The notes under the pieces: model-generated
Database searches by the model: none
What the model was told of the DNA's origin: nothing
What the model saw: only the letters and a program-made list of their open reading frames with translations
DNA from: Candidatus Marinacidobacterium sp.
GTDB taxonomy: Bacteria > Acidobacteriota > Vicinamibacteria > Marinacidobacterales > Marinacidobacteraceae
Reading direction: 5' to 3'
DNA length: 64,000 nt
NCBI GenBank assembly: GCA_965202845.1
Contig: OZ241856.1
Coordinates: forward strand, 1,155,886-1,219,885
Shown here: piece by piece, positions 35,916-51,351 of the stretch
Layout of the letters: every line of letters begins with the position of its first letter
Numbering within the stretch: the stretch's first letter is position 1
Made by a program: the position numbers and the translations under genes

Positions 35916-38195
35916 GTGTTCCGACGTTCCGGTCTCTGCATCCTCCTCCTCGCCGCCGCCTGCGGCGGAGGCGTCGATCCGATCCGGCCGCTGAACGTGG
36001 TGGTGGTGACCCTGGACACCCTCTCCGCCCGGCACCTGAGCCCCTACGGCAGCGAGCGGATCCGCACTCCGGCCTTTGAGCGGGTCGCCGCCGAGGGCGT
36101 CCTCTTCGAGCAGGCCACCGCGAGCGTTCCGCTCACCCTGCCCTCGCACGCCACCATGTTCACCGGAACCCACCCGATGTTCCACGGAGTCCGGGACAAC
36201 GGCGGCTACCCGGTCCCGGACTCGGCGGAGACGCTGGCCGAAACGCTCGCCGCCGCCGGGTATCGCACCGGCGGGTTCATCGGCGCCTTCGTCCTGGATT
36301 CGCGCTGGGGGCTGGACCAGGGCTTCGAGCGCTATTTCGACGACTTCGACTTCGGGGAATTCGAATCCTTCGGGCTGGACACCGTCCAGCGCCCCGGCAA
36401 CGAGGTGCTGGACGCCGCCCTCGACTGGATGGGGCAGGTGCGGGAGGAGCGGTTCTTCGCCTGGATTCATTTCTACGACCCGCACTGGCCCTACGAGCCG
36501 CCGGAGCCTTGGCGCTCCCGGGTCGGCGACTACCGGGAAGCCCGCTACGACAGCGAGGTGCTGTTCACCGACTTTCTGGTGGGGCGGCTGCTCGACTGGC
36601 TGGACGCGAACGCCCTCGTTCGGGACACCCTGCTGGTTCTGATCGCCGACCACGGGGAGAGTCTGGGGCGGCACCAGGAGACCGCCCACGGGTTCTTCAT
36701 CTACGACGCCTCGATGCAGGTGCCCTTCCTGGTGCGCGCCCCCTACCGCCAGATCGCCGGCGGCCGGCGGGTGGCCGCCCAGGTGCGGGGCGTGGACCTG
36801 ACGCCCACCGTCCTGGACCTGGTGGGGGTGGGCATCCCGGAGGCGGTCCAGGGCGAGAGCCTGCTGCCGCTGCTGGACGGGTCGGTGGAGGACCTGGGGC
36901 TTTGGGCCTACAGCGAGAGCTTCTATCCCCGGAACCACTACGGCTGGGCGCCGCTCCACGCGCTGCGTAACGGGTTGCTGCACTTCATCTCCGCCCCCCG
37001 CCCGGAGATCTACGAGATCGCGGCCGACCCCGGGCAGCGGCGGAATCTGGCCGGCGAACGCCCCGGACAGCTGGAGCAGCTGGAGGCGCGGCTGCGTCGC
37101 ATGATGGCCGGATACGCATCGGGAGTGGAACGCCCGGCGCAGATGGTGGACGAGGAGACGCGCGCCCGGCTGGCGGCGCTCGGCTACCTGGGCGGAACCG
37201 CGCCGGTTCCGGTCCGGGACGAATCCGACCTCGCCGACCCCAAGGACAAGGTGCATCTCTACAACCTGCTGAAGCTGGCGGGAACCGATTCGAGCGAGGG
37301 CCGGATCGACGAGGCGATGGCTTCGGTGCGCCGGGCGCTCGCCGAGGATGCGGGCATCCTGGAAGCCCACCTGATCCTCGGCAACCTGCACCGGAAGCGA
37401 CGGGCTTGGGACGAGGCCATCGCCGCCTACCGGGACGCGCTGGCGCTGGACGAGAACTACAAATCGGCGGTGCTGGGGCTCGCCGACGCCTACCGGCTGG
37501 CCGGGCGCTCCGCCGAAGCGGAGGCCGGCTACCGACGGCTGCTGGAGCTGGACCCGAACGACAACATCGGCGCCTTCCACCTCGCCGGCATCCTTGCCGG
37601 GCGGGAGAATTGCGACGGCGCGCTCGAAACGCTGGCCCGGCTGGAGGGCGCCGGAGAGATGCAGGCGCCGGCCCGGAACCTGAAGGGCGAGTGCCTGCTC
37701 AGCCTGGAGCGCCTCGACGAGGCCGAAATCGAATTTCGGCTAGCGCTCGAACGGGACGAACGGCTTTCCGAAGCCTGGTACAACCTCGCGCTGCTCCACG
37801 AGGAGCGGGGCGAAGCCGATGCGGCCCTCCGCGCCTACGAGGCCCGCCTGGAGCAGGCGCCCCGGGACTTCCGCTCGCACTTCAACCTCGCCCGGCTGTT
37901 CGGCGCCCTGGGGGACCGGGAGCGCATGGAGGCCGGCTTCCGCGACGCCATCGCCTACAACCCCGAATTCGCAGTCGGGCATCTCCATCTCGCCAAGGCG
38001 CTTCTCGACCGGGGCGCCCTCGAGGAGGCGGAGGACATGGCGCGCCGGGGAAACGCGCTCGACCCGCCGCCCGACATGGCGCCCTTCGGCTACTTCGTCC
38101 TCGCCGACATCTACAGCCGCCTGGGGAGGCGCGCCGACGCCGAGCGCGCGTTCCGCCGAGGCGAAACCCTGCGCCGCCAAGGAGAACAACCATGA
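35916..38195 (+). CDS. sulfatase family lipoprotein with a C-terminal TPR domain
   Basis: Lipobox LLLAAACGG. The sulfatase N-domain has TLDTLSARHL but lacks a C/SxPxR formylglycine motif, so it is more like the sulfatase/phosphoglycerol-transferase superfamily, with LIADHGE. About 300 aa of TPR repeats follow at the C-terminus. GTG start. Confidence 0.8.
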   Translation: MFRRSGLCILLLAAACGGGVDPIRPLNVVVVTLDTLSARHLSPYGSERIRTPAFERVAAEGVLFEQATASVPLTLPSHATMFTGTHPMFHGVRDNGGYPVPDSAETLAETLAAAGYRTGGFIGAFVLDSRWGLDQGFERYFDDFDFGEFESFGLDTVQRPGNEVLDAALDWMGQVREERFFAWIHFYDPHWPYEPPEPWRSRVGDYREARYDSEVLFTDFLVGRLLDWLDANALVRDTLLVLIADHGESLGRHQETAHGFFIYDASMQVPFLVRAPYRQIAGGRRVAAQVRGVDLTPTVLDLVGVGIPEAVQGESLLPLLDGSVEDLGLWAYSESFYPRNHYGWAPLHALRNGLLHFISAPRPEIYEIAADPGQRRNLAGERPGQLEQLEARLRRMMAGYASGVERPAQMVDEETRARLAALGYLGGTAPVPVRDESDLADPKDKVHLYNLLKLAGTDSSEGRIDEAMASVRRALAEDAGILEAHLILGNLHRKRRAWDEAIAAYRDALALDENYKSAVLGLADAYRLAGRSAEAEAGYRRLLELDPNDNIGAFHLAGILAGRENCDGALETLARLEGAGEMQAPARNLKGECLLSLERLDEAEIEFRLALERDERLSEAWYNLALLHEERGEADAALRAYEARLEQAPRDFRSHFNLARLFGALGDRERMEAGFRDAIAYNPEFAVGHLHLAKALLDRGALEEAEDMARRGNALDPPPDMAPFGYFVLADIYSRLGRRADAERAFRRGETLRRQGEQP

Positions 38196-40318
38196 ACATC
38201 CACCGCTTCGCCCCCATCCTGCTCGCTGTCGCGCTCGGTTGCGGCGGCTCGAACAACCCCACCACGGAGTCCATGTCGGAAAACCCTCTCCTCACCGAAA
38301 GCGCGCTGTTGCATCGCCTGCCGCCGTTCGACCGGATCCGGGACGAGCACTACCTCCCGGCGTTCGAGCGGGGCATGGCCGAGGACCTCGCCGAAGCGGA
38401 GCGGATCGCCGCGCTCGACGAGCCGCCCACCTTCGAGAACACGATCACGCCGATGGAGAGCGGTTCGCCGCTGCTGTCCCGGGTCTCGCGGGTGTTCTTC
38501 GGCCTTTCGTCGGCGCACACCAACGACGCCATGAACGCGATCCGGGAGGAGATCTCGCCGAAGCTCGCCGCCCACGCCGACCGCATCCTGCTGAACCCGG
38601 ACCTGTTCGCACGGGTCCGGGCCCTCCACGACGCCCGGCATGACAGCGGCCTCGACGCCGAGCAGGTCCGGCTGGTCGAGGAATACCACCGGAACTTCAT
38701 CCGCGCGGGCGCCAATCTCTCCGAGGAGCAGAAGGAGCGGATGCGCGCAATCAACTCCCGCCTCGCCTCGCTCGGCGCTTCCTTCACCCGGAATGTTCTG
38801 GATGAAGTGAACGCCTCGGCGGTGGTGGTGGACACCGAGGCGGAACTTGACGGACTGGACGAAGGCGAAATCGCCGCCGCCGCCGAAGCCGCCAGGGCCC
38901 GGGATCTGGAAGGCAAGTTCGTGATTCCGTTGCTGAACACCAGCGGCCAACCGGCGCTTGCGAGCCTCACCGACCGGGACCTTCGCGAGCGGATCCTGCG
39001 CGCCTCGCTCGCCCGCGGCAGCAGCGGCGGCGAGTATGACAACCGGGAGATCATCACCGAAATCGCCCGACTCCGGGCGGAGCGGGCGGCCCTGCTCGGC
39101 TATCCGCATCACGCGGCGTTCGTTCTGGAGGAGCAGACGGCCGGCACGGTGGAGGCGGTTCACGAGCGGCTGGCGGCGCTCACCCCGGCGGCGGTCCGGA
39201 ACGCCCGCCGGGAGGCGGCCGCATTGGAACGGGCAGCCCGCGCCGAGGGAGCGGACATCGAGATCGCCGCCTGGGACTGGCAGTTCTACACCGAGAAGCT
39301 GCGCGCCGAGCTCTACGACTTCGACGCCGCGGCGCTCCGCCCCTACTTCGAGCTGCACAGCGTGCTGGAAAACGGCGTGTTCCACGCGGCGAACCTGCTT
39401 TTCGGGCTGACCTTCGAGGAGCGGCCGGAGCTGCCGACCTACCAGGAGGACGTGCGGATCTGGGAAGTCTTCGACCACGACGGCTCTTCGCTCGGGCTTT
39501 TTCTCGGCGACTTCCACGCCCGCCCGTCCAAGCGCGGCGGCGCCTGGATGAACGCCTACGTTCCGCAGTCGGGGCTTTTGGGGACTCGTCCGGTGGTGGC
39601 GAACCATCTCAACATTCCCGAGCCGCCGGAGGGCGAGCCGACCCTGATGACCTTCGACGAGGTCATCACCCTGTTCCACGAGTTCGGGCACGCCCTGCAC
39701 GGGCTGTTTTCGGATGTGCGCTACCCGACCTTCGCCGGCACTTCGGTTCCCCGCGACTTCGTGGAGTTCCCCTCCCAGGTGAACGAGATGTGGGCGACCT
39801 GGCCGGAAGTGCTCCGCAACTACGCAGTGCACTACCAGACCGGCGAGCCGATCCCCGGCGACCTGCTGGAGCGGGTGCTGGAGAGCCAGACCTTCAACCA
39901 GGGGTTCGCCACCACCGAATACCTGGCCGCCACCCTGCTGGACCTGGCGTGGCACGAACGGGCGGTCTCCGAAATCCCGACCGCCGAGCAGGCGATCGCC
40001 TTCGAGGAGAACGCGCTGGAAGCCGCCGGAGTCGCGTTTCCGCCGACGCCTCCCCGCTACCGCAGCACGTACTTCTCCCACATCTGGGGAAGCGGCTATT
40101 CCGCCGGGTACTACTCGTACATCTGGAGCGAGGTGCTGGACGCCGACAGCGTGGAGTGGTTCCGCGAGAACGGCGGCCCCACCCGCGAAAACGGGGACCA
40201 CTTCCGGGCGACCCTGCTCTCCAGGGGCGGATCGGTGGATGCGATGGAGCTGTTCCGCGCCTTCCGCGGCCGCGACGCCGACATCGCCCCGCTGCTGAAG
40301 CGCCGGGGACTGGAGTAG
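38192..40318 (+). CDS. M3 family metallopeptidase (peptidyl-dipeptidase Dcp / oligopeptidase A-like), lipoprotein
   Basis: AAGGAG RBS before the ATG. Lipobox LAVALGCGG. HEFGH zinc motif. Overall M3A architecture. Confidence 0.85.
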   Translation: MNIHRFAPILLAVALGCGGSNNPTTESMSENPLLTESALLHRLPPFDRIRDEHYLPAFERGMAEDLAEAERIAALDEPPTFENTITPMESGSPLLSRVSRVFFGLSSAHTNDAMNAIREEISPKLAAHADRILLNPDLFARVRALHDARHDSGLDAEQVRLVEEYHRNFIRAGANLSEEQKERMRAINSRLASLGASFTRNVLDEVNASAVVVDTEAELDGLDEGEIAAAAEAARARDLEGKFVIPLLNTSGQPALASLTDRDLRERILRASLARGSSGGEYDNREIITEIARLRAERAALLGYPHHAAFVLEEQTAGTVEAVHERLAALTPAAVRNARREAAALERAARAEGADIEIAAWDWQFYTEKLRAELYDFDAAALRPYFELHSVLENGVFHAANLLFGLTFEERPELPTYQEDVRIWEVFDHDGSSLGLFLGDFHARPSKRGGAWMNAYVPQSGLLGTRPVVANHLNIPEPPEGEPTLMTFDEVITLFHEFGHALHGLFSDVRYPTFAGTSVPRDFVEFPSQVNEMWATWPEVLRNYAVHYQTGEPIPGDLLERVLESQTFNQGFATTEYLAATLLDLAWHERAVSEIPTAEQAIAFEENALEAAGVAFPPTPPRYRSTYFSHIWGSGYSAGYYSYIWSEVLDADSVEWFRENGGPTRENGDHFRATLLSRGGSVDAMELFRAFRGRDADIAPLLKRRGLE

Positions 40319-40329
40319 TCGTACGATTC

Positions 40330-42062
40330 ATGCACGCCCAACCGATAGAATTCCTGAAGCTGCTGAAAGGCGAGCTTCAGTACGTTGTGCCGCGCTGGCA
40401 GCGTCGCTATTGCTGGCGGCATACGGAAATCGAACGGCTGGTCGAGGACCTGCTGGCGATTGCTGACGCAGGTCCGGAAGCCGTACACTACGCAGGCAAT
40501 CTCCTGACGTTCGAGGAAACGGGCGCCGCCGGTGTGCTCAGCACGATCCGCGTCGTCGATGGCCAGCAGCGGCTCACCACGGTAAGCATTCTGATCGAAT
40601 GTATCGCTCAAAAACTCGGTGAGAATGGGCAATGTGGCGATTGGACTCCGAGGATTCTTCGCAATCGTCTTGTCAACCCTGATTGGGAGGATTACAAACG
40701 CATCAAGATTCGACTCCAGGACGGCGATGATGCGGAATACCGTAGCGGCATGGAAGGAAGAAATCCTTCCGGAACCGGAGCCGTCGTCCAAGCATGGAAG
40801 AAAGTGCGAAGCATGGTGGAGCGTACTGACACAACCCGCCTGCTACGGGGACTCGAGCGGCTCCGGGTAGTCAGCATCGGCCTTGACCACACCGACGATC
40901 CGCAGCAGGTTTTCGAGAGTCTGAACGCCACCGGACGCCCGCTCACCGAGAGTGAAAAGGTCAAGAACTGGCTGTTGATGGGTCTCCCGGAGGAGAAGCA
41001 ACAGCAGCTCCACGATGGTCATTGGCGCACAATCGTAGAGGCGCTTGGCGCCGAACACACGACCGAACCCATAGACCATTTTCTCCGGGATGTGATGCGC
41101 TGGCGGACTGGAGAAATGCGCGGCGGCGACAAGACCTACGAACAGCTTCGGCGCTGGGCGCTGAAAGAGAAGCAAGAAGATCGTCCGGCGCTTCTGGCCG
41201 ATTTGGCCCGACTCGCCAAACTCTATGGAATTCTGACCGGGCCACAAAAACACTCCCAAAAGAAAGTGGAAAGGGAAATCCGGCATCTTCGGTATCTCGG
41301 CCTGAATGTCCACCGTCCGTTGAGCTTGCGAATCCTTCACGATGCGAAAACAAATGCATCGGGGATATCCAGCCAGGAATTAGCGAAAATCTTCGCGGGA
41401 ATCGGAACCTGGATCACGCGCCTCTGGCTGGCGGACCGACCGACGACGGGCATGAACAAGGCTGCCGCCGAGCTCGCGCACAGCGAAGGACTGGGCGTCG
41501 GAGAGGACCCCGTGGAGCACTGGTTGCATCGAATCCGCCGACTCCGCAATCAGCATACCGGCGTTCCGAACGACGAAGAGGTTCGGGAAGGCGTTCGCAC
41601 GCGGAACGCCTACGGAGGCGGCGCCAACAGGCCCGCCTTCGCTGTTCTGTGCGCATTGATGGACGCGCAAAACCTGGGTGACGAAATGCTGGATCGCGAT
41701 CCACTCCAGATTGAACACGTGATGCCGCAGAAGTTGACGGAAACATGGAGGCATGATCTCGGTGAAAATGCGGATGAAGTCCATGCGCAACTTCGCAACC
41801 GGCTCGCGAATCTGACTCTGATCGGAGAAGGCGAAAATCCCGGCTTGGGAGCAAGACCGTTTTCGGACAAAAAGAAGGTTTACAAAGAGAGTTCCATCAA
41901 GATGACGCAGCAGCTCGCAAATGAAGAAAAATGGGACGAAGCGACAATCTTGCGACGCGCGGATTCTCTAGCCGACCAGGCGCTTGCGCTGTGGCCCTGG
42001 ACCGACCAACGAACTCCGCCCGCCGAGAAGCAGGACGCTTCCGGATTCCGATGGAAAATTGA
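40330..42062 (+). pseudogene. GmrSD-like type IV restriction endonuclease (DUF262 + DUF1524), 5' portion, interrupted at 42062/42063 by an ISL3 insertion
   Basis: DUF262 motif ...VVDGQQRLTTVSILIE. DUF1524/HNH-like motif ...PLQIEHVMPQKL...W...H...NLTLIGEGEN...FSDKKKVY. GC is lower than the flanks. The ORF then reads without a stop into IS antisense sequence. Confidence 0.7.
42055..42062. repeat. target-site duplication AAAATTGA (left copy)
   Basis: Identical 8-mer immediately flanks both IS ends. Confidence 0.8.
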
Positions 42063-43530
42063 GGCTCTTTCAAATACCGAGTGGGTACGCGACATGAGGG
42101 TTGAGCTTGGAGAAGTCCAGTTTTCCGGCGATGAGGAAGAACACGGTGCGGATGGTCTGGAAGGTTCCGTAGCCTCTGGCTTTCCGCTTGGCCGCCTGAA
42201 ACAGGCCGTTGAGCGCCTCGATGAAGCCGTTGGTCTGGCGGGTTCGGGCCCACGCGACGATGCCCTCGAGATGTTTGCGGATCATCCGCGCGACGGCTTT
42301 CATGGGTTCGACCTTGGAGCGGTTCACGTTGGCGCACCACTGCCGGAGCATGGCTCTGACGACGTTGACCTGCTTGCGGTTGAGGATGTTCCGGAGTTGC
42401 TCGCGGTACATCCAGGCTCGGGCGGTGCGCTTTCCGGGGGCCTGCGCGATGAGAGCGTTGAGTTGGGCGCGCTGTTCGGGGCCGAGTCGTTCGGGATTTT
42501 TGAGGAGCGCCCAGCGCATGCCCTTGAGTTGGGGGTTGGCGCGCTGCTCGATGCGCCGGGTCTGGTCGAGGGCCTTGGATGCGTGAGCGATGACGTGGAA
42601 TTTGTCGAAGGTGATCTGGGCGTTGGGGAGATGCTCTGCGACGCCCTTCATGTAGGCGGGGGACATGTCGATGGAGGCGACTTCGACGGCTTCGGGGTCT
42701 CCGCCGTGGGCTTCGAGGCTTCGGGCGAATCGGTCGACGGAGTCGGCGGCGCGGCCTTCTCCGACGAAGATGACCCGGCGTTTTCGGGCGTCTGCGACGA
42801 CGGTGACGTAGTTGTGGCCGCGCGCGCGGGAGGTTTCGTCGATGGCGACGGCGCGGACGTCGGCTTGGTCGTCGGTTTCGGTGGCGAGTTCCACATAGCG
42901 GTTGGAGATGGCCTGGGTTTGGTGCTGGGAGAGTCCGGCGAGCCGTGCGACGGCGGCGAAGGTCATGTCCTGGCACATGGCGAGAATCAAGGCTTCGAAG
43001 AGGAGGGAGAACCCGGAGAGCTTGCCGGCCCAGGGCGGCGAGACCAGCGCGACCTTGCCGTTGGGGAGGCGCACCCGGGGGACGCGCGCCACCAGTTCGC
43101 ACTCGAATTGGAAGAAGTTGAGGTGGCGGAAGCGCTTGGTCTTGGTGTCGTGGACCGGATGGAGGCCGTCGTGGTTCTGGTGGGCGAAGCGGGCGCCCCT
43201 GCGGAAATCGACGCGGATGCTCAGCTTTCCTTGGTCCTTGTCGAATTCCACGTTCTCGACGAACCAGGGGTCCGGGATGCCGAGGGCTTGGGCGAAAAGC
43301 TCGTGTAGCACTGGATGCGCTCCTTTTTTTCAGGGTCGAAAGCGGGAAAAGTGTTCCATTGGTGTGTGGCGACGCTGGCTGGGGACGGTTGCGGCTTCCC
43401 GCTTTCGACCCTTTTTCGAGCGTGCCCGCCGGATTCCGTGAGTCAAGGGTTCGCTACGCCGTGCAAGCCCGCCCTTGACACCCGGAATCCCGGCGGTCTC
43501 CATTCTACCCACTCAAATCTCAATTGAGGC
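42063..43530 (-). mobile_element. ISL3-family insertion sequence (about 1.47 kb)
   Basis: Left terminal inverted repeat GGCTCTTTCAAATACCGAGTGGGTA. Right terminal inverted repeat ...CTACCCACTCAAATCTCAATTGAGGC (imperfect; they share the GAGTGGGTAG core). Single transposase ORF. 8-bp TSD. Confidence 0.8.
42070..43311 (-). CDS. ISL3 family transposase
   Basis: 413 aa with typical ISL3 transposase sequence (...ASIDMSPAYMKGV...DKFHV...). DDE-type. Confidence 0.9.
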   Translation of the reverse strand: MLHELFAQALGIPDPWFVENVEFDKDQGKLSIRVDFRRGARFAHQNHDGLHPVHDTKTKRFRHLNFFQFECELVARVPRVRLPNGKVALVSPPWAGKLSGFSLLFEALILAMCQDMTFAAVARLAGLSQHQTQAISNRYVELATETDDQADVRAVAIDETSRARGHNYVTVVADARKRRVIFVGEGRAADSVDRFARSLEAHGGDPEAVEVASIDMSPAYMKGVAEHLPNAQITFDKFHVIAHASKALDQTRRIEQRANPQLKGMRWALLKNPERLGPEQRAQLNALIAQAPGKRTARAWMYREQLRNILNRKQVNVVRAMLRQWCANVNRSKVEPMKAVARMIRKHLEGIVAWARTRQTNGFIEALNGLFQAAKRKARGYGTFQTIRTVFFLIAGKLDFSKLNPHVAYPLGI

Positions 43531-43538
43531 AAAATTGA
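43531..43538. repeat. target-site duplication AAAATTGA (right copy)
   Basis: Matches 42055-42062 exactly. Confidence 0.8.
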
Positions 43539-44289
43539 AGACGGTCCATGGAATTCCGAAAAAGAAGGAAGCAAGATGGTTCTCAATGTGACCGGTGCGC
43601 TCCTGGATCTGAATTCTGAAAATTTCAAGCATTTGCGCGGCGATGCGATCAGCGCCAACATTCACCCAACAAGCACCTATTCTTCTGGAAGCACAGTTCA
43701 GTCCCTGAAAATGTTCGCCGTCCCAAGACACACTGATTGGGTAATGTATCCGTACGAAAGAAACTATCCGGCCTATGCGAAACGATGCCACAGTCTGGGT
43801 GAACGATGCGGAATCAATCTCCAAGTCGAAATCATTTCGGACCGGGCCGAGATCACCGAAGCCTTCTGGAAACACCTCATGGAAGTTCATGGCGGCGTCC
43901 CCGGACAGCAGGCGCAATGGCGAGGCAGAAGCCAGAAGACGAAACCTTGCAATTCCCATGGAGACCGCGTTGGAATTGGACTCGGCGAAGACCATATTCT
44001 GATCTACATTCGTGGACGTTCGAAAAATCACGTGACACGAAAAAGAGTTTTCCGTTTTTCACAGATCATGCATGAGGAAATGACGGATCAGTCCATATTG
44101 GGAAATTTGGAAAAAGAGAGCGAAGCTGGCAGGAGTGTTTGGGTCCAGCACGACTGGACACGAGAAGACAGGGACGGTTGGGATGAGGCATGTCGGTGGA
44201 TTCTGGATCAATATGAAAGACTGTGGATGATCTCGCGACGCCCCGATCATGGAGATGGGGAAACGTCTGATCCGGATCGAGAGGTTTGA
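43539..44289 (+). pseudogene. 3' portion of the IS-disrupted GmrSD-like gene: a C-terminal domain of unknown function of about 250 aa
   Basis: After conceptual excision of the IS plus one TSD copy, frame +1 continues without a stop from 40330 to 44289 (828 aa). An internal AAGGAAG-N5-ATG at 43576 could allow separate expression. Confidence 0.5.
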
Positions 44290-44326
44290 AGTCCTTGATT
44301 CAAGGGGCATCAAGGCACCCGGGAAA

Positions 44327-44698
44327 CTACGTGGGGGGATTGCGATTCCCTATCGCGGTCACGAGCCGGGGAATGGCGGCGACTCCGATACCACCGGCGA
44401 GAATCCCCGCCACAGTCGTATGGCCAATCCAGGCGAGGAAAACAACAGCCACCAGGATGCCAAACCACACGACGACGCCCAGGCTGGTCTCGCGCATTTC
44501 GAGCCGGGAAGCGTGCGCCTCGATCTCATGTCTCGCCGCCTGTTCCGATTCGCCCGTTGCGAAAATCCGCTCGGCGGCGCCGGGGAGCATGCGTTCGTAA
44601 TGCTCGAAATGGGACGGCGGAGGAAGCGGCCCGCTGCGCATGGACAGTCGAGGCGGCGGGAGCCCCATCGATTCCTGAATCGCGCGTTCGTGTTCCAT
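44327..44698 (-). CDS. DUF2335-like small membrane protein
   Basis: N-terminal conserved-looking block PPPSHFEHYERMLPGAAERIFATGESEQAARHE, then two C-terminal TM helices. Lower GC. Confidence 0.45.
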   Translation of the reverse strand: MEHERAIQESMGLPPPRLSMRSGPLPPPSHFEHYERMLPGAAERIFATGESEQAARHEIEAHASRLEMRETSLGVVVWFGILVAVVFLAWIGHTTVAGILAGGIGVAAIPRLVTAIGNRNPPT

Positions 44699-44873
44699 CC
44701 CCTTCCAGAGATCCTGCCCGACGCGCTCCCAGTCCCCCCCTGAGGGCTTCCGTCGCCGAGATTCGCTTCCTCGGTTTCGTCAGGGGAACCATGAGCGGAT
44801 CCACCCGGAGCCTCGCCAGTCCCGCAAGAAGGGCCGCCCATCTCCCTCTCATGCCCACGAAACGTAAGGGATT

Positions 44874-47231
44874 TCAGAAGGTCCAGCGCCAGCCGGAGAG
44901 CAGCGCGGTCTGCGCGCCGAGCGCCCGGCGGTGGCCGTACCGGAAGCTCCGCACCGCGCCCAGCCGGAACTCCCCCCGCCCCAGCCGCCGGTTCCACTGC
45001 GCGGTCAGATCGATCTGCCGCGCTCCCGGCGCCAGGTCGGTCCGGAGCGGAAGGTGGTTCACCATCCCCTGCCGGGTGCGGGCTGACGGCACCAGGAGCG
45101 TCGCCTGGCCGCTCTCGACCCGCAGCGGCTGCGACACCGAGAATTCCAGCGAACTCTCGGCCAGCGCGGCGCCGATGTGCGCCGAGAACGCGCTGGTGCG
45201 AAGCGGCGCAATGTCCTGGATGATGCCGCCATGCGCTTCGGGACGCGCCATCCCGTATTCGCCGCTCCCCCCAATCCGCCAGCGGCCCAGCTGCGTCCCG
45301 CCGTCCACCCCGACGAAGCCGGTGGTGGCCGAGAGGCTGCCGAACGCCCCCAGCCCCATGCTGCCGAGCAGCGTCTCCCGCTCCTCGATCCAGCCGGCGC
45401 GAAAGCCGACCGGGAGGCTTCCCGGGCGCCAGCCAAAGGCGGCCCCGGACGCCGGCATCCCGGCGCGCCAGGTTCCGGTGGTGAATGCGGTCGCGGAGAG
45501 GCCGCTCCGCCCGAAGGCGCTGAACTGCACCGCGCCCTCGGCGAGCGCCAGGTGTCCGCTGCCGGTGGCGGTCGGCATCCGCAGGACGTCCGCCCGGAGT
45601 CCGGGCGCTTGTGGATTGTGGAACGCGGAGCCCGATTCGGTCCCCAGGAAGCTGCGGAGCCGGGCGCCCATCGAGGGGCCGTCGGTGGTGACCGCGAATC
45701 CGTCGAGGCGATGCCAGAAGGGAGCGCCCAGGCCGTCGAGGGACATGATTTCCTTGCCGTCGAGCGTCTCTCGGACGCCGTCGCCGAAGGCCGCTCCCAG
45801 CCGCAACCGGGTCGACTGGAGGGAGGCGGCGAACCCGGTGGTCTCGATGGGAACGCCGAGCACCCCGACCGGGGAGGTGGCGGCGCCCAGGTCCATCCGG
45901 CCGTTGCCGTAGACCTGCCGGTCGGCGTAGACGCCGGTGTTGTCGGCGGTGGCGAAGAGCCGGGAGACCAGCTCCTCGTTGGAAAGCGAGTCCCGGAAGA
46001 GCTGCTTCATCACCGCGAGTCCCCCGGCGACCATCGGAGCGGCGAAGGAGGTCCCGCCCGCTTTCCCGTAGTCCCGGACTCCGCTCTCCCCGTCCCGGGG
46101 GCCGAACCGCGCGACCTGGATTTCCTCGCCGGGAGCGGCGATGCAGAAATCGGCGGCGAGACCGCAGCGGTTCGAGAAGAAGGTGATCCGGCCTCCGTTC
46201 GGGCTCAGGGCGACCACCGCGATGGAGTGCCCCCGAAGCTCCTCGATGCGCGCCATCAGCCCGCTGAGGACATTGGGCGAGACCGCCTCGAGCTGGTCGT
46301 CCTCGCAATGCAGATCCCCCGTCGCGCAGCCGGCGTGGCTGTTGCCGGCAGCCCACACCAGGATCGTCTTGTCGGGCGCATTCGCCTGCGCCAGGGCCGC
46401 GATCGTCTTCGGGATGTGAGCGCGCAGGTCCTCCTCGCTGTATGCGTCGATCAGACCGTCAAAACCGAAGCTCAGGTTCAGGATGTCGATCCTCCGTCCC
46501 TTCGCGTCGCGCCAGGCGAGGGCCGGCGAAAAAAGCCCGGCCACATCCGAGTCCGCCTTGGCGAGTTCCTCCAGCGTGACCGGTCCATCCACTTCGTGGA
46601 CATCGCTGATCGGGGGGCTGGCCCAGACGGCGAGATCCGCGCCCCACGCGACTCCCAGCGGCGCCTTCGGGTCGTCGACGCGGCCGCCCGCCGCAACGCT
46701 CGCCACCGCAGTGCCGTGGGAAAGCTCTTCCCCGTTTTCGTCGACGGCCCCCTGCAGGAACGCTTCGTGGACCGTCTTGCCGGCGAAGATCGGATGCTCG
46801 ACATCGATGCCGGAATCGATCACCCCGATGGTGACCCCTTCGCCCGGCTTCGCGTCGGAACCCTCCAGCAGGTTCACGTGGGCGTAGGCGAGGTGGGCGT
46901 TGATGGATTCGAGACCCCACTGCGCCTTGAAATTCGCGTCCGCGGCGTAGTCCGGCGCCCGCTTCGTCGCCATCTCGTTGAACTCGGGGGCGGGGACGCA
47001 GCCGTTCGCGGGGGTCGGGATGCAGACGTCCTCCGGGGCGTCCGGGAGTCCGCGCGGCGGGGGAGGCGGCTCCGGGGGCGCTGGGGGTGGCGCCGGAGGG
47101 GGCGCTGGCGCCGGTGGCGTCGCCGGGGGAGCGGCGACCGGCGTCCCGGAACGCGAGGAGCAACCGCCCAGCGCCATCCCCAGCGTCACCACCGCAGCGA
47201 GCAGGGCAAGGACGGGAATATTCCGCGTCAT
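44874..47231 (-). CDS. S8 family serine peptidase (subtilase) with a C-terminal autotransporter beta-barrel; lipoprotein-type signal peptide
   Basis: Catalytic triad motifs VIDSGID, HGTAVASVAAGG and GTSFAAPMVAGG. Long poly-Pro/Ala linker after the lipobox (LGMALGGCSS). C-terminal domain of about 300 aa ending ...SGWRWTF, typical of an autotransporter beta-barrel. Confidence 0.8.
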   Translation of the reverse strand: MTRNIPVLALLAAVVTLGMALGGCSSRSGTPVAAPPATPPAPAPPPAPPPAPPEPPPPPRGLPDAPEDVCIPTPANGCVPAPEFNEMATKRAPDYAADANFKAQWGLESINAHLAYAHVNLLEGSDAKPGEGVTIGVIDSGIDVEHPIFAGKTVHEAFLQGAVDENGEELSHGTAVASVAAGGRVDDPKAPLGVAWGADLAVWASPPISDVHEVDGPVTLEELAKADSDVAGLFSPALAWRDAKGRRIDILNLSFGFDGLIDAYSEEDLRAHIPKTIAALAQANAPDKTILVWAAGNSHAGCATGDLHCEDDQLEAVSPNVLSGLMARIEELRGHSIAVVALSPNGGRITFFSNRCGLAADFCIAAPGEEIQVARFGPRDGESGVRDYGKAGGTSFAAPMVAGGLAVMKQLFRDSLSNEELVSRLFATADNTGVYADRQVYGNGRMDLGAATSPVGVLGVPIETTGFAASLQSTRLRLGAAFGDGVRETLDGKEIMSLDGLGAPFWHRLDGFAVTTDGPSMGARLRSFLGTESGSAFHNPQAPGLRADVLRMPTATGSGHLALAEGAVQFSAFGRSGLSATAFTTGTWRAGMPASGAAFGWRPGSLPVGFRAGWIEERETLLGSMGLGAFGSLSATTGFVGVDGGTQLGRWRIGGSGEYGMARPEAHGGIIQDIAPLRTSAFSAHIGAALAESSLEFSVSQPLRVESGQATLLVPSARTRQGMVNHLPLRTDLAPGARQIDLTAQWNRRLGRGEFRLGAVRSFRYGHRRALGAQTALLSGWRWTF

Positions 47232-47381
47232 GGCGCCTGGAGCATAGCTTCGCAGCGCGGACGCAACCTTTCCGGCGCCTGGATTCCCGATCCACCGGAT
47301 TCCAATTCCCAATGATCATGCCGTTGACTTCCAATTGCCAGGGCGCAAACTTCCAATTATCATGTCTCTGGATTCCATCTC
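47232..47381. promoter_or_regulatory. divergent intergenic region with clustered short direct repeats (TTCCAATT x3, GGATTCC x3, CCAAT[G/T]ATCATG x2)
   Basis: Direct reading. AT-richer than the surroundings. Lies between the subtilase and the ATPase genes. Confidence 0.3.
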
Positions 47382-48608
47382 ATGTACAAACGATTCGCGG
47401 AGCGGCTGATGCGGGAAGCTCTTGCCGACACCCCGGTTGTTCTGATCGTCGGGCCGCGCCGGGCGGGCAAGACCACGCTGGTCCGGAAGATGGAGGAGGC
47501 GGATCGACGCTTTCTCACCTTCGACGACCCGATCGTCCTCGACGCCGCCCGAACCGACCCGGTCGGGTTTGTTCGCGGATTGGACCGGGTGATCCTCGAT
47601 GAGGTCCAGCGCGTGCCGGAACTGCTGCTGGCGATCAAGCGTTCGGTGGACGAGGACTACCGACCGGGGCGTTTCCTGCTGACCGGGTCCGCCAACGTCA
47701 TGACCCTCCCCCGCGTCGCCGACAGCCTCGCGGGCCGGATCGAAACCCTGCGGATGCTGCCGCTGGCGCGCGCCGAAATCGAGGGCGTGACGCCGACCTT
47801 CCTCGATCGTCTCTTCGCCGGAGAAAGAGAACTTGAAGGCAGTCAAGATGCGATCGTGGGGGATGAATTGGTCCGGCTGACCCTGACCGGGGGCTTTCCC
47901 GAAGCGGTCGCCCGCGAGACCGAGCGGCGCCGGCAGGCATGGGCGCGGTCCTGGCTGGCGTCGGCGCTCAGCCGGGATCTGCGGGAGATCACCGAAATCG
48001 GGAGACAAGCCGAGTTGCCGAAGTTCGTCCGCATGCTGGCGGAGCACTCGGGACAACTGGTCAACTATTCGCAGCTCGGCGCGCGAATCGGCGTCAGCCA
48101 CAAGACCGGACAGCGCTATCTCGCACTGCTGGAGCAGGTCTTCCTGGTCACGACTTTGCCGTCTTGGCACACCAATGCGTTGAAGCGGCTTGTCAAAACG
48201 CCCAAGCTGCACTTCCTTGACTCGGGGCTCCTCGCCGCGGCGCGCGGCATGACCCTCGCCCGGGTCCGGGCCCGGCGTGACGCCTTCGGTCCGCTGCTCG
48301 AGAGTTTCGTGTTTTCGGAAATCTTGAAACTCATCGCGGCGTCGGACATGCAAGTGACGCCCTGGCACTTCCGGGATCAGCAGATGCGCGAAGTGGACAT
48401 CGTCCTGGAGCGGGATGACGGCAGGATCGCGGGGATCGAAATCAAGGCGAACGCGACCGTGCGATCCCGCGACTTCGCCGGGCTGCGCACCCTGGCCGAA
48501 GCCTGCGGGGAGCGTTTCGCCTTCGGAGTGGTTCTCCATGACGGCGACGGGCTGACGCCGTTCGCCGACCGGCTGGCGGCGGCGCCCCTGTCGGGCCTCT
48601 GGGCTTGA
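47382..48608 (+). CDS. AAA+ ATPase (AAA_14 domain) with a C-terminal DUF4143 domain
   Basis: Walker A VLIVGPRRAGKTTL. Walker B ...VILDEVQ. DUF4143-like C-terminal region. Confidence 0.75.
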   Translation: MYKRFAERLMREALADTPVVLIVGPRRAGKTTLVRKMEEADRRFLTFDDPIVLDAARTDPVGFVRGLDRVILDEVQRVPELLLAIKRSVDEDYRPGRFLLTGSANVMTLPRVADSLAGRIETLRMLPLARAEIEGVTPTFLDRLFAGERELEGSQDAIVGDELVRLTLTGGFPEAVARETERRRQAWARSWLASALSRDLREITEIGRQAELPKFVRMLAEHSGQLVNYSQLGARIGVSHKTGQRYLALLEQVFLVTTLPSWHTNALKRLVKTPKLHFLDSGLLAAARGMTLARVRARRDAFGPLLESFVFSEILKLIAASDMQVTPWHFRDQQMREVDIVLERDDGRIAGIEIKANATVRSRDFAGLRTLAEACGERFAFGVVLHDGDGLTPFADRLAAAPLSGLWA

Positions 48609-48615
48609 GGCGCGC

Positions 48616-50049
48616 CTACCGGAGTTCCCTGCGAAGCTCCACACACAGACCGGCGGCGATGAGGACAGAGGCGGCGGCGAGGGGGAGGCCGGTGAGCGAC
48701 GCCGCCGCCTGCACCGATTCGAGGCTGCCGCCCAGCAGCAGCGCTGCCGCGACCGCGCCCTCGGTGAGGCACCAGAACACCCGCTGCGCCGTCGGCGCGT
48801 CCAGCTTGCCGCCGGCGGTGATCGAATCCACCACCAGCGATCCCGAATCGGACGAGGTCACGAAGAAGATGACGGTGAGCACGATGGCGACGATCGAAAG
48901 CGGAAGGGTCAGCGGGCGCGCCTCGAACATCCGAAAGAGCGCCAGCTCCGGGCGGAACGCCCGCACCGCGTCCGCCACCCCGGAATGCCCTCCCACGATC
49001 AGCTGGTGGAGGGCGGAACCGCCGAAGACGCTCATCCAGAGCAGCGTGAACAGGGTCGGGATCACGAGCAGGAAGCCGAGCATCTCCCGGACGGTGCGCC
49101 CCCGGGAGATGCGGGCGATGAAGATGCCGACCACCGGAGTCCAGGCGAACCACCACGCGAAGTAGAAGGCGCTCCATTCGTGGAGGTAGGCGGTGTCGGT
49201 GCGCCCCACCCAGTTGCTGAGCGGCACGAGGCGCAGGGCGTAGGCGCCGAGACCTTCGAGGAATGCGCCCGCCACTGCGCCGAAGGGGCCGAGAACGACC
49301 ACCGCCAGCATCAGGGCCACCGCCAGCAGGATGTTCGCCTCGCTCAGCCGGCGGACTCCGGCGTCGAGCCCGGAAAGCACCGAAAGGGTGGCGATCAGGG
49401 TGATCGTCGCGACGATGAGCGTCCCGGTCAGGTCGGTGGCGGGAATGCCGAAGAGATGCTCCAGACCGCCGGAAATCTGGCGGGCGCCGAGTCCGAGCGA
49501 GGTCGCCAGCCCGAACACGGTGGCGCACACGGTCGCGAAGTCGATGAAATGGCCGGAGGCGCCCCACACCCGGTCCCCCAGCACCGGGTGGAAGACCGAG
49601 CGGAGCGCCAGCGGGTAGCCCCGGTTGTAGGCGAAAAACGCCAGCGCGAGCGCGGCGACCCCGTAGATGCCCCAGCCGTGCAGCCCCCAGTGGAACAAGG
49701 TGGCGGCGACCGCGTCCCCGACGCTGGGACGCTCGATGCCGAGCGGCGGGTGGAGGAAGTGCTGCATCGGCTCCGCGACTCCGAAAAAGAGGAGTCCGAT
49801 GCCGATGCCGGCGGCGAAGAGCATCGCGCCCCAGGTGAGCCGGGAATACCGGGGCTTGGCGTCCGGTCCGCCGAGCCGCACCCGGCCGAGCGGCGAAACG
49901 ATCAGGAACAGGCAGGTCAGTACCGCGAGGTTGGCGCTTCCGAGGTAGAGCCAGTCGAAACGGGACGTGAGGGAGGCGTGTACGTCCGCGAACACCGCTC
50001 CTGCCTGACCGCGAAACACGATCGCCAGCGCGACGAACAGCAGGATCAC
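48616..50049 (-). CDS. BCCT family (betaine/carnitine/choline) transporter
   Basis: BCCT signature region ...RLTWGAMLFAAGIGIGLLFFGVAEPMQHF... 12-TM topology. GTG start. Confidence 0.85.
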   Translation of the reverse strand: MILLFVALAIVFRGQAGAVFADVHASLTSRFDWLYLGSANLAVLTCLFLIVSPLGRVRLGGPDAKPRYSRLTWGAMLFAAGIGIGLLFFGVAEPMQHFLHPPLGIERPSVGDAVAATLFHWGLHGWGIYGVAALALAFFAYNRGYPLALRSVFHPVLGDRVWGASGHFIDFATVCATVFGLATSLGLGARQISGGLEHLFGIPATDLTGTLIVATITLIATLSVLSGLDAGVRRLSEANILLAVALMLAVVVLGPFGAVAGAFLEGLGAYALRLVPLSNWVGRTDTAYLHEWSAFYFAWWFAWTPVVGIFIARISRGRTVREMLGFLLVIPTLFTLLWMSVFGGSALHQLIVGGHSGVADAVRAFRPELALFRMFEARPLTLPLSIVAIVLTVIFFVTSSDSGSLVVDSITAGGKLDAPTAQRVFWCLTEGAVAAALLLGGSLESVQAAASLTGLPLAAASVLIAAGLCVELRRELR

Positions 50050-50154
50050 CGTCGCCGAAGCGACGAAGACCGGCGCATGGATGTCGAGCCCGAACCGCCG
50101 GATGTTCCCCCTTCCGGGGGCGTGCGGGGGAAGTCGGATACGCGCGGCCCCGGC

Positions 50155-51351
50155 CTACTGCTCCCGCAGCGCTCCCACCACGCTGCGGCGCGCCGCTCCG
50201 ATGGCCGGGGCGATCCCGCCGAGCGCGCCGATCCACAGCGCCAGCGTGATGCCCTGGGCGATCAGGTCCGGGGTGACCCGGAAGGCGAAGGCGACCTGGC
50301 TGAACGAGGCGAAGTTGATGGTCGCGGCGCGGAACCCGTCGAAGAGGAGCCACGACGCCACCCCGCCGAGCGCCGCCCCGATCAGGGCGAAGAGGAGCGA
50401 CTCCGCCATCACCGAGACCACCACCGGAGTCCGGGCGAAGCCGAACGCCCGAAGCGTCGCGATCTCGCGGGCGCGGCTCGAAACCGCGGCGTACATGGTG
50501 TTGAGCGCCGCGAAGACCGCCCCCACCGCCATCATCGCCACGACGATCCAGCCCAGGGTGGTGATGACGGCGTCCATCGCCTCGGACTGCTCGGCGAGGT
50601 ATTCGGTTTCGCGCATCGTGGTGACGTTCACGCGCGGGTCGTCCTCGAGGAAACCCTGAAAGTCGTCGTAGGCATCCGCATCGCTGAGCCGCACCAGAAC
50701 CGAGTTCGACGAGTTCCCCCGCTGGTAGGCGTCGGCGAGGATGCGGCTGTCGGCCCAGATCTCCGATTCGGAAATCCCGCCGCCGGCGGTGAAATGCCCC
50801 ACGACCTCCCAGTCCACGGTTCCGACGTCGATCCGGTCGCCGATCCGGAGCCCCTCGAAGGACTCGACGGCGGCTATTCCGACGATCACCTCGTTCCGTC
50901 CCGGCTCGAACATCCGCCCGTCCCGAATCTCGATCGTGTCCCGCACCGCCATCACGCCGGGCGCCACACCCCGCAGGGGCACGTTCGCATCGGTGCCGGT
51001 CCCCAGCTTTTGCCGGTCGATGATCACGAAAATTTCCGGGGACACCAGCGGACCCGAGGCGCCGCGGGCCACCCCGGGCGCCTCCTCGATGACCTGGACT
51101 TCCGGGCGCGAAAGAACGCTCATGGATTCGGAGACCGAGCCGCTCCGCATCACGATGGCGAAATCGTCGCGCGCCTGTCCCTGGACCATCAGGCGGAATC
51201 CGGTCGCCATCGAAAGCACCGCCACCAGCACCCCGACGACGCCGGCGACCCCGAAGATCGCCACCACCGAGGAGCTCCGGCGCTGCCAGATGGTCTGCAG
51301 GTTGTAGGCGGAAACCGCCCCGATCTGCCTGAGGAAGGAGATGAGTCGCAT
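50155..51351 (-). CDS. ABC transporter permease, FtsX-like (MacB-type), copy 2
   Basis: N-terminal TM, large periplasmic domain, C-terminal FtsX 3-TM bundle (...ATLRAFGF...). Confidence 0.8.
   Translation of the reverse strand: MRLISFLRQIGAVSAYNLQTIWQRRSSSVVAIFGVAGVVGVLVAVLSMATGFRLMVQGQARDDFAIVMRSGSVSESMSVLSRPEVQVIEEAPGVARGASGPLVSPEIFVIIDRQKLGTGTDANVPLRGVAPGVMAVRDTIEIRDGRMFEPGRNEVIVGIAAVESFEGLRIGDRIDVGTVDWEVVGHFTAGGGISESEIWADSRILADAYQRGNSSNSVLVRLSDADAYDDFQGFLEDDPRVNVTTMRETEYLAEQSEAMDAVITTLGWIVVAMMAVGAVFAALNTMYAAVSSRAREIATLRAFGFARTPVVVSVMAESLLFALIGAALGGVASWLLFDGFRAATINFASFSQVAFAFRVTPDLIAQGITLALWIGALGGIAPAIGAARRSVVGALREQ

What the first reader, a model, noticed from the sequence alone, without database searches (positions are those of the whole stretch)
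40330..44289. GmrSD-like type IV restriction gene split by an ISL3 insertion with a perfect 8-bp target-site duplication
A DUF262 (DGQQRLTT) plus DUF1524 (IEHVMPQ...NLTLIGEGEN) ORF begins 11 bp after the M3 peptidase gene. It is interrupted at 42062/42063 by a ~1.47-kb element carrying one ISL3 transposase gene (42070-43311, minus strand). The element has imperfect terminal inverted repeats GGCTCTTTCAAATACCGAGTGGGTA and CTACCCACTCAAATCTCAATTGAGGC. The octamer AAAATTGA is present at both junctions (42055-62 and 43531-38). Removing the element plus one duplication copy restores a single 828-codon frame running to 44289, so the insertion is a clean, apparently recent event that inactivated a modification-dependent restriction system. 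The whole 40.3-44.7-kb stretch has visibly lower GC than the roughly 70% flanks, consistent with horizontal acquisition.
Basis: partly seen in the sequence, partly recalled or inferred. Interest (0 to 1): 0.6.

Follow-up and report, generated by a model that had tools for sequence, protein, structure and literature searches.

The report
Defence nuclease gene split by transposon

Summary
A 1,468-bp ISL3-family element (42063-43530) carries an intact transposase that is 64% identical to ISAe1. It is flanked by the octamer AAAATTGA, which occurs nowhere else in the 64-kb window. Removing the element and one octamer restores an 827-aa protein with GmrSD_N and GmrSD_C domains and intact DGQQR and EH..N motifs. 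This protein aligns end to end, with no gap at the junction, to more than 100 uninterrupted homologues of 810-850 aa.

It sits at codon 577/578, at the start of a 250-aa C-terminal module that resembles DUF4268 only remotely. So "inactivated" is an inference, not a demonstrated result.

The orphaned 3' fragment shows no decay, which supports a recent event. The gene has 50-58% GC against 70% for the window. It sits in a slot after an M3 peptidase gene that holds different defence genes in related Vicinamibacteria genomes. One of those relatives carries the same gene family with a premature stop codon.

Relatives of the element insert at AT-rich octamers, and 48% of the window's AT-rich octamers lie within this gene. 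Novelty is low: a new ISAe1-like element and a new GmrSD-like subfamily member.

The parts
40330..42062 (+). 5' part of the GmrSD-like gene: codons 1-577 plus two bases of codon 578. It encodes the whole DUF262/GmrSD_N domain (residues 10-216, DGQQR at 77-81), the helical linker, the whole DUF1524/GmrSD_C His-Me nuclease domain (residues 413-549, EH at 462-463, N494), a disordered linker (560-571) and the first strand (573-577) of the C-terminal module.
42055..42062 (.). Left copy of the 8-bp target-site duplication, AAAATTGA.
42063..43530 (-). ISL3-family insertion sequence, 1,468 bp, of the ISAe1-like subgroup. It appears to be a new element: no protein in the 15-billion collection falls within 90% identity of its transposase.
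42063..42087 (+). Terminal inverted repeat at the transposase 3' end, GGCTCTTTCAAATACCGAGTGGGTA. The transposase stop codon (42070-42072) lies inside it.
42070..43311 (-). Transposase gene: 413 aa, GTG start, AGGAG at 43320-43324 (-) eight nt upstream. It has DDE_Tnp_ISL3 and HTH_Tnp_ISL3 domains and a degenerate Zn-ribbon without Cys ligands, as in ISAe1. It is 64% identical to the ISAe1 transposase over 405 aa.
43312..43530 (-). IS leader upstream of the transposase gene, with two strong hairpins (43332-43412 and 43431-43490). Its last 25-26 nt form the right terminal inverted repeat (43505-43530, ...TACCCACTCAAATCTCAATTGAGGC).
43531..43538 (.). Right copy of the 8-bp target-site duplication, AAAATTGA.
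43539..44289 (+). Orphaned 3' part of the GmrSD-like gene: the third base of codon 578 through the TGA at 44287-44289. It encodes a two-subdomain C-terminal module with no Pfam hit above threshold; the second subdomain is remotely DUF4268-like. Public annotation calls 43576-44289 a separate 237-aa protein.
38243..40318 (+). Flanking M3 peptidase gene. It is the conserved left anchor of the variable defence slot.

Best explanation
A single-gene GmrSD-like defence nuclease of 827 aa was acquired horizontally into a variable slot just downstream of an M3 peptidase gene in a Vicinamibacteria-like genome. Its parts are a DUF262 ParB/Srx-type NTPase domain, a helical linker, a DUF1524 His-Me (HNH-type) nuclease domain and a 250-aa C-terminal accessory module.

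An ISAe1-like member of the ISL3 family later transposed into the AT-rich octamer AAAATTGA at codon 577/578. Staggered cleavage of the target followed by repair produced the 8-bp duplication. The insertion separates the C-terminal module from the catalytic core. The core is now fused to a 415-residue nonsense tail read from the antisense strand of the transposase gene, which most probably abolishes normal function.

Shown here: the gene's identity, the element's family, its boundaries, the duplication, the seamless reconstruction, the lack of decay, the foreign composition, and the AT-rich target duplications of the element's relatives. Inferred: loss of activity, the enzyme's trigger (modified or phosphorothioated DNA), and the idea that the element's AT preference rather than selection put it in this gene.
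For: - Domains and motifs: Pfam and PADLOC hits, the latter full length (HEC-06 at 8.5e-57; 'Orf5' at 4e-102).
- Homologues: 119 of the 120 best hits listed are 803-859 aa at 53-62% identity and at least 96% coverage. The junction FRWKIE|DGPW matches the conserved RWRIEDGPW with no indel.
- No decay: of columns at least 95% conserved among 119 homologues, 204 of 223 are kept before the junction and 41 of 43 after it.
- Transposase: 64% identical to ISAe1 over its full length.
- Termini and duplications in relatives: the termini GGCTCTTT..GAGTGGGT and ..ACCCACTC..GAGGC are conserved in ISAe1 and in the relatives at 72-73% identity. 22 of 30 delimited relatives have perfect 8-bp duplications.
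- Target preference: 27 duplications average 72% A+T. 26 of the 54 octamers in the window with at least 7 of 8 A/T lie in this gene, which is 4% of the sequence.
- Composition: GC and GC3 are foreign (GC3 is 65% and 52% for the two gene parts, against 90% for the M3 peptidase).
- Variable slot: genomes whose M3 peptidase is 84-87% identical carry a 55%-identical GmrSD, an AlbA_2/HATPase protein or an AccI-type RM pair at the same place.
- Structure: in the full-length model a disordered linker (560-571) precedes the first strand of the C-terminal module (573-577), immediately before the insertion point.
Against: - Loss of function is not demonstrated. Both catalytic domains are intact upstream of the IS. 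Validated HEC-06 relatives work as proteins of about 560 aa without a C-terminal module (bioRxiv 10.1101/2024.01.29.577857).
- No uninterrupted allele and no second copy of this exact IS was found in the window, the metagenome collection or the protein collection. Activity of the element and the age of the event therefore rest on sequence intactness alone.
- The terminal repeats match at only 15 of 25 positions.
- The source appears to be one 2.86-Mb contig. The close relatives are metagenome-assembled genomes, but that status was not confirmed for the source. Population heterogeneity at this site is unknown.
Confidence: 0.88

Rival explanations
1. The insertion split the gene without killing it. 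The truncated product keeps NTPase and nuclease activity, possibly deregulated or with altered specificity. The 237-aa C-terminal ORF may be made separately.
For: - Both Pfam domains and the catalytic motifs lie upstream of the IS.
- PADLOC HEC-06 and 'Orf5' profiles of 543-569 positions end at residue about 556, so core-only enzymes exist, and HEC-06 is experimentally active (bioRxiv 10.1101/2024.01.29.577857).
- The insertion follows a disordered linker.
- The 3' ORF starts at a 90%-conserved Met, with GAAGGAAG 5-12 nt upstream of it.
Against: - The core is fused to 415 residues of antisense-derived sequence, giving a 992-aa product. This is likely to misfold or be degraded.
- Transcription of the transposase gene converges on the gene.
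- No sigma-70-like promoter was found anywhere in 39900-44800.
- A hairpin followed by a T-run on the + strand (43332-43417) lies between the core and the 3' fragment.
- In this roughly 820-aa clade the C-terminal module is present in all but one of the 120 best hits listed, which implies it is needed.
Confidence: 0.15
2. Selection, not chance, fixed the disruption. The nuclease became harmful, for example after the host acquired a DNA modification it attacks, and knock-outs were favoured.
For: The homologue at the same locus in the closest available genome (L087; M3 peptidase 87% identical) carries a TAA at codon 18 where the other members have Tyr. This is a second, independent lesion. That genome also has an N6_N4 methyltransferase/SfiI-type pair 6 kb away. 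Conflict between type IV enzymes and incoming methyltransferases is established knowledge (my own knowledge, not tested here).
Against: - No methyltransferase or restriction homologue of those tested was found in the window.
- The IS's AT-rich target preference alone predicts a roughly 22-fold per-base enrichment of candidate sites in this gene.
- Two cases are too few to argue for selection.
- The stop codon in L087 could be a sequencing error in a long-read assembly.
Confidence: 0.2
3. Assembly artefact: the IS was placed here by mis-joining of repeats in a metagenome assembly.
For: The source is a single 2.86-Mb contig and the close relatives are MAGs. In the related MAG several IS copies have non-matching flanks.
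Against: A mis-join would not create a perfect 8-bp duplication that restores a gap-free, conserved reading frame when removed. No second copy of the IS exists in the window to recombine with.
Confidence: 0.03

Closest known systems
HEC-06 (GmrSD-like single-protein phage defence; Payne et al., bioRxiv 10.1101/2024.01.29.577857; PADLOC PDLC04154-04157)
   Same: The PADLOC profile matches over its full length (residues 16-556, E = 8.5e-57). Both have the DGQQR motif in the DUF262 domain and an EHxxP His-Me motif in the DUF1524 domain, both of which are essential in HEC-06. Both are single-gene systems.
   Different: HEC-06 profiles are about 560 positions long and have no C-terminal module. The window protein carries 250 extra residues. 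It is not embedded in an Hma system. No activity has been tested.
GmrSD / Eco94GmrSD and BrxU (type IV restriction of glucosyl-hmC and other modified DNA; PMC4619093, PMC4437046, PMC8565348)
   Same: Same DUF262-linker-DUF1524 architecture, with both Pfam domains above threshold. Variable C-terminal add-on domains such as DUF4268 are known in this family (PMC4619093, PMC5714182).
   Different: Similarity is low: the PADLOC mREase_IV profile reaches only 1.1e-13, and only on the N-terminal part. BrxU did not appear among matches to solved structures by sequence or by fold. Substrate is unknown.
DndI and SspE (phosphorothioate-sensing DUF262-DUF1524 nucleases; PDB 9jfl, 6jiv, 7drr; PMC11662687, PMC9646914)
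   Same: These are the closest solved structures to the full-length model (Foldseek E = 6.6e-14 and 5.8e-11) and to the sequence profile (9.7e-18).
   Different: There are no dnd or ssp modification genes next to the gene. Identity is 16-18%. The C-terminal module has no counterpart in those structures.
ISAe1 (ISL3 family, Cupriavidus necator H16 megaplasmid pHG1)
   Same: The transposase is 64% identical over 405 aa, with the same loss of the Zn-ribbon cysteines. The termini are of the same type: GGCTCTTT..GAGTGGGT at one end and ..CCCACT..GAGGC at the other. The pHG1 copy also has an 8-bp duplication (CTCTCTAT).
   Different: DNA identity is only 69% over 77% of the element. The element here has a longer leader (219 bp) with two hairpins. 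The closest relatives, at 72-73% aa identity, are in Vicinamibacteria and Limisphaerales MAGs. By the usual IS naming practice this would be a new element.

Membership tests
GmrSD family (type IV restriction enzymes) | DUF262 / GmrSD_N domain (PF03235) above Pfam threshold | tested here: met
   94.4 bits against a cut-off of 33.2; residues 10-216; full profile coverage.
GmrSD family (type IV restriction enzymes) | DUF1524 / GmrSD_C domain (PF07510) above Pfam threshold | tested here: met
   85.6 bits against a cut-off of 23; residues 413-549.
GmrSD family (type IV restriction enzymes) | Catalytic motifs: DGQQR (NTP hydrolysis) and the His-Me finger (D/E)H...N | tested here: met
   D77-G78-Q79-Q80-R81, E462-H463 and N494 are present and invariant in the alignment with 16 homologues.
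GmrSD family (type IV restriction enzymes) | Cleavage that depends on modified DNA and is stimulated by NTP | not testable with these tools
   This needs enzyme assays. The nearest solved relatives sense phosphorothioate rather than modified bases.
HEC-06 (PADLOC) | Match to the HEC-06 profile over its full length | tested here: met
   PDLC04157: E = 8.5e-57, residues 16-556 against profile positions 21-556 of 558. A differently named PADLOC family, 'Orf5', scores higher (4.2e-102). I could not find what 'Orf5' refers to.
ISL3 family of insertion sequences | DDE_Tnp_ISL3 transposase with the ISL3 HTH domain, as a single ORF | tested here: met
   PF01610 at 227.7 bits; PF13542 at 48.5 bits.
ISL3 family of insertion sequences | N-terminal Zn-ribbon (PF14690) | tested here: inconclusive
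   21.8 bits against a cut-off of 25.5, and the Cys ligands are replaced. ISAe1 has the same degenerate segment, so this is a subgroup trait and not damage.
ISL3 family of insertion sequences | Imperfect terminal inverted repeats beginning GGCTCTT, and an 8-bp target duplication | tested here: met
   The left end is GGCTCTTT and the right end is GCCTCAAT (reverse complement); 15 of 25 positions match. The 8-bp duplication is perfect. The same pattern is seen in ISAe1 and in 22 of 30 relatives. That GGCTCTT and 8 bp are typical of ISL3 is my own knowledge.
DUF4268 (PF14088), for the C-terminal module | Hit above the Pfam gathering score | tested here: not met
   11.6 bits (E = 0.28) against a cut-off of 27. 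4 of 10 homologue C-termini hit the same part of the profile at E = 0.01-0.15.
DUF4268 (PF14088), for the C-terminal module | Homology through intermediate sequences | tested here: inconclusive
   Remote relatives of the module hit DUF4268: P0124 at 32.7 bits, above threshold; P0225 at 5e-5 and P0197 at 5e-4, both over the whole profile. But P0154 has the module and, in addition, a separate bona fide DUF4268 domain.

The most novel reading that the evidence does not exclude
Probability: 0.15. Interest if true: 0.5.

Novelty: new member of a known kind. Interest (0 to 1): 0.25.

Why it matters
Defence genes are gained and lost quickly, and insertion sequences are a well-known cause of loss. This locus is a clean, datable example in a poorly studied phylum (Acidobacteriota, Vicinamibacteria-like).

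It offers three modest leads:

1. A quantitative reason why a GC-rich genome's IS would hit foreign DNA. About half of the window's AT-rich octamers, the kind of target its relatives use, lie within this one gene.
2. A small defence hotspot anchored on a housekeeping peptidase gene.
3. A large, uncharacterised GmrSD subfamily of about 820 aa whose conserved C-terminal module has no solved or annotated counterpart. The natural truncation here marks the boundary of that module.

None of this changes current understanding.

Tried and rejected
- Uninterrupted allele: an exact 24-mer spanning the empty site was searched in metagenome contigs and gave no hit.
- Further copies of the IS: the exact 25-mer of the left end gave no hit in metagenome contigs. 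There is none in the window by blastn, tblastn or pattern search with 3 mismatches. The transposase is a singleton cluster among 15 billion proteins.
- Source contig: look-ups by exact protein failed for the transposase, the M3 peptidase (two versions) and the 237-aa ORF. Only the contig length (2,864,726 bp) was recovered.
- DUF2335 as a conserved partner gene: rejected. The small ORF in the same position next to homologue P0001 is unrelated.
- Rfam: nothing in 40000-45000 except one sub-threshold chance hit.
- Promoter scan: no sigma-70-like site in 39900-44800, so the scan gives no support for separate expression of the 3' fragment.
- Methyltransferase or restriction homologues in the window, to support a conflict scenario: none found with seven queries.
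- Meaning of the PADLOC family name 'Orf5': not found in the paper library.
Full report
**1. Observation**

Reading 40200-44800 directly and checking by script confirms every coordinate in the finding.
- The M3 peptidase gene (Peptidase_M3, E = 3.7e-123) ends with TAG at 40316-40318. An ATG follows at 40330.
- The octamer AAAATTGA lies at 42055-42062 and at 43531-43538. These are its only two occurrences in the 64-kb window on either strand. Shuffled sequence gives a mean of 0.26 occurrences.
- Between the two copies lie 1,468 bp. The ends are GGCTCTTTCAAATACCGAGTGGGTA and, for the right end read as reverse complement, GCCTCAATTGAGATTTGAGTGGGTA. They agree at 15 of 25 positions, including a perfect GAGTGGGTA.
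- The only long ORF in the element that matches a protein family is 42070-43311 on the minus strand: 413 aa, a GTG start, and AGGAG eight nt upstream.
- Joining 40330-42062 to 43539-44289 gives 2,484 nt, which is 827 codons plus a stop, with no internal stop.

**2. The interrupted gene**

The reconstructed protein has GmrSD_N (PF03235, residues 10-216) and GmrSD_C (PF07510, residues 413-549), both well above Pfam thresholds. In PADLOC it matches GmrSD-like defence profiles over their whole length: 'Orf5' at 4.2e-102 and HEC-06 at 8.5e-57, both ending near residue 556. HEC-06 is an experimentally validated single-protein phage defence in which the DGQQR and EH motifs are essential (bioRxiv 10.1101/2024.01.29.577857). 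The window protein has both motifs, at D77-R81 and E462-H463, plus N494.

A search of 5.8 billion proteins found 819 relatives. The best 120 are listed, and 119 of them are uninterrupted proteins of 803-859 aa at 53-62% identity covering at least 96% of the reconstruction. In an alignment with 16 of them, the junction sequence FRWKIE|DGPW lies on the conserved motif RWRIEDGPW with no gap. The reconstruction is therefore a real single gene and not two ORFs that happen to be in frame.

**3. Where the element sits in the protein**

The insertion is at codon 577/578, which is after both catalytic domains. In the full-length AlphaFold model (mean pLDDT 75.5), a disordered linker (560-571) is followed by a strand at 573-577. 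This strand is the first element of a C-terminal module of about 250 aa. Modelled alone, the module is confident (pLDDT 92.2) and has two subdomains.

What the module resembles:
- It has no Pfam hit above threshold. DUF4268 appears at E = 0.28 for the window sequence and at 0.01-0.15 in 4 of 10 homologues, always on the same part of the profile.
- A full HMMER scan of 1.8 billion representative proteins found only 105 relatives of the module. Most sit at the end of GmrSD-like proteins of about 700-900 aa.
- Some stand-alone or repeated relatives do hit DUF4268: P0124 above threshold, and P0225 and P0197 over the whole profile.
- I therefore call the second subdomain remotely DUF4268-like. DUF4268 is known as a C-terminal add-on in this family and is suspected to bind DNA (PMC4619093, PMC5714182).

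As the locus now stands, the ORF runs on from the junction through the antisense strand of the transposase gene to the TAG at 43306-43308. It would give a 992-aa product in which 577 residues are native and 415 are not. The 3' fragment contains an ORF (43576-44289) that public annotation calls a separate 237-aa protein.

Loss of normal function is the most likely outcome, but it is an inference. Core-only relatives are active, which is why I keep a rival explanation at about 0.15.

**4. The element**

- The transposase has DDE_Tnp_ISL3 (2.4e-67) and HTH_Tnp_ISL3 domains. Its Zn-ribbon scores below threshold and lacks the cysteines.
- The closest named element is ISAe1 of Cupriavidus necator pHG1: 69% DNA identity over 77% of the element and 64% protein identity over 405 aa. 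ISAe1 has the same cysteine-less segment.
- The ISAe1 copy has ends of the same type (GGCTCTTTTGAAAAATGAGTGGGT and ...CCCACTTGAAATTCAAAAGAGGC) and an 8-bp duplication, CTCTCTAT.
- A scan of GTDB species-representative genomes found 209 relatives. The closest, at 72-73% protein identity, are multicopy elements in a Vicinamibacteria MAG (OZ220470.1, at least 9 copies) and a Limisphaerales MAG.
- The Vicinamibacteria ends (GCCTCAACTCAATTTCGAGTGGGTA ... TAACCCACTCGAAATTCAATAGAGCC) closely resemble those in the window.
- Of 30 other relatives whose ends could be delimited, 22 have perfect 8-bp duplications.
- The exact transposase is a singleton in a collection of 15 billion proteins, with nothing within 90% identity. 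It is found on one contig of 2,864,726 bp.
- No second copy is in the window. The exact left end is absent from the metagenome collection.

This is an intact, previously unnamed ISAe1-like member of the ISL3 family.

**5. Recency**

The duplication is perfect and the transposase ORF is intact. The orphaned 3' fragment is still an open frame of 250 codons in DNA of 50% GC. It keeps 41 of 43 positions that are at least 95% conserved among 119 homologues, compared with 204 of 223 upstream of the junction. Nothing has decayed since the insertion. No empty-site allele was found, so the age cannot be bounded further.

**6. Foreign origin and the hotspot**

Composition:
- The window is 69.9% GC. The two gene parts are 57.8% and 50.5%, and the IS is 63.6%.
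- GC3 is 90% in the M3 peptidase, 65% and 52% in the two gene parts, and 84% in the transposase.
- In 1-kb sliding windows, the only ones below 62% GC lie within about 40.0-45.0 kb.

The M3 peptidase has close relatives at 84-87% identity on large contigs. One of these is the Vicinamibacteria MAG OZ220470.1. The gene immediately after the M3 stop codon differs among these genomes:
- L087 (M3 87% identical): a member of the same GmrSD subfamily at only 55% identity, followed by an AAA_14/DUF4143 ATPase.
- L088 (M3 86%): an AlbA_2 plus HATPase_c_4 protein.
- L089-L091 (M3 84%): an AccI-type restriction enzyme with an Eco57I-type methyltransferase.

In L087 and L090, synteny with the window resumes at the BCCT transporter and MacB/FtsX genes (window 48616-51351). 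L088 showed no further synteny within the flank retrieved.

The window's allele is closer to homologues from other lineages (62%) than to the one at the same locus in L087 (55%). Its GC is also lower than that of any homologue examined (about 63%). This points to replacement by a foreign allele and argues against vertical divergence. Homologues elsewhere sit among type I RM genes, integrases, transposases and an Eco57I-type giant protein, which is typical defence-island context.

**7. Why this gene was hit**

The 27 duplications collected from relatives average 72% A+T, and 16 of them have at least 6 of 8 A/T, even though the hosts are GC-rich. The window's own duplication is 7 of 8 A/T. With the IS removed, the window has 54 octamers with at least 7 of 8 A/T. 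26 of them lie in the 2.5-kb gene, which is 4% of the sequence, a 22-fold enrichment per base. Target preference alone therefore makes this gene by far the most likely landing place in the region, without any selection. This is my inference and has not been tested on this element's own copies.

A selective explanation cannot be excluded. The L087 homologue has a TAA at codon 18 (L087:10234-10236) where the other members have Tyr, which is a second and independent lesion.

**8. Comparison with known systems**

The closest validated protein family is HEC-06. The closest solved structures are DndI (9jfl, E = 6.6e-14) and SspE (7drr/6jiv), which are phosphorothioate-sensing nucleases (PMC11662687, PMC9646914). 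Classical GmrSD and BrxU are more distant. No dnd or ssp genes flank the gene.

The trigger is therefore open: modified bases as in GmrSD and BrxU, phosphorothioate sensing as in SspE and DndI, or something else. "Modification-dependent" is a family-level assumption.

**9. Verdict**

This is an ordinary event: an IS knocking out an accessory defence gene. It involves a new ISAe1-like element and a member of a large but uncharacterised GmrSD subfamily. Interest is low, at 0.25. The hotspot, the AT-target bias and the unassigned C-terminal module are modest leads.

Noticed in passing
window 40319-48608; loci L087 10122-14426, L088 10122-11409, L090 10107-13746: The position just after the M3 peptidase stop codon holds different defence-type genes in genomes whose M3 peptidase is 84-87% identical. 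These are a GmrSD variant plus an AAA_14/DUF4143 ATPase; an AlbA_2/HATPase_c_4 protein; and an AccI-type restriction enzyme, an Eco57I-type methyltransferase and a RelA_SpoT protein. In L087 and L090, synteny resumes at the BCCT and MacB genes. It looks like a small defence hotspot.
   Followed up: partly
L087 10183-12648 (stop codon at 10234-10236): The same-family GmrSD gene at the same locus in Vicinamibacteria MAG OZ220470.1 has a TAA at codon 18, where the other members have Tyr. The remaining 785 codons are open. This is either a second independent knock-out or a sequencing error.
   Followed up: partly
window 42063-43308 (+): The interrupted gene's frame stays open through the antisense strand of the whole transposase gene. 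This gives a 992-aa ORF whose last 415 residues are non-native. Such long antisense ORFs are expected in GC-rich DNA.
   Followed up: yes
window 43332-43412 and 43431-43490: There are two strong hairpins in the 219-bp leader upstream of the transposase start: a 17-bp perfect stem and a 19-bp stem at 89% complementarity. The leader RNA folds at -98 kcal/mol, z = -3.8 against shuffles, with no Rfam match. On the + strand the first hairpin is followed by TTTTT, so it could stop transcription that crosses the IS.
   Followed up: partly
window 43576-44289 (+): The orphaned 3' fragment is present in public protein collections as a separate 237-aa protein (P0121, 100% identical, on a 2,864,726-bp contig). 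Annotation has therefore missed the split gene. GAAGGAAG lies 5-12 nt before its ATG.
   Followed up: partly
window 44327-44698 (-) and 44874-47312 (-): A DUF2335 membrane protein gene (64% GC) and an S8 subtilase gene lie between the GmrSD gene and the AAA_14/DUF4143 gene. Both are absent from the syntenic region of L087. The sulfatase-TPR gene at 35916-38195 is also absent from L087 but is present in L090.
   Followed up: partly
window 47382-48608 (+); L087 13206-14426: An AAA_14/DUF4143 ATPase gene (73% identical between the two genomes) follows the GmrSD-family gene in both. It could be a conserved neighbour or functional partner. This was not examined further.
   Followed up: no
L008, L009, L014 (Vicinamibacteria MAG OZ220470.1): Several copies of the related IS lack matching duplications, but they share the flank CGAATTCG on opposite sides of different copies. 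This suggests rearrangements between IS copies, or repeated use of one target sequence.
   Followed up: no
[not shown]
   Followed up: no
L004 1035-3161 and L004/L005 3924-10544: In the genome of homologue P0010, the gene lies 18 nt downstream of a 1,179-1,352-aa protein with an Eco57I-type methyltransferase domain. A second GmrSD protein with a DUF5655 C-terminus lies nearby. So different C-terminal add-ons on the GmrSD core occur in one island.
   Followed up: no
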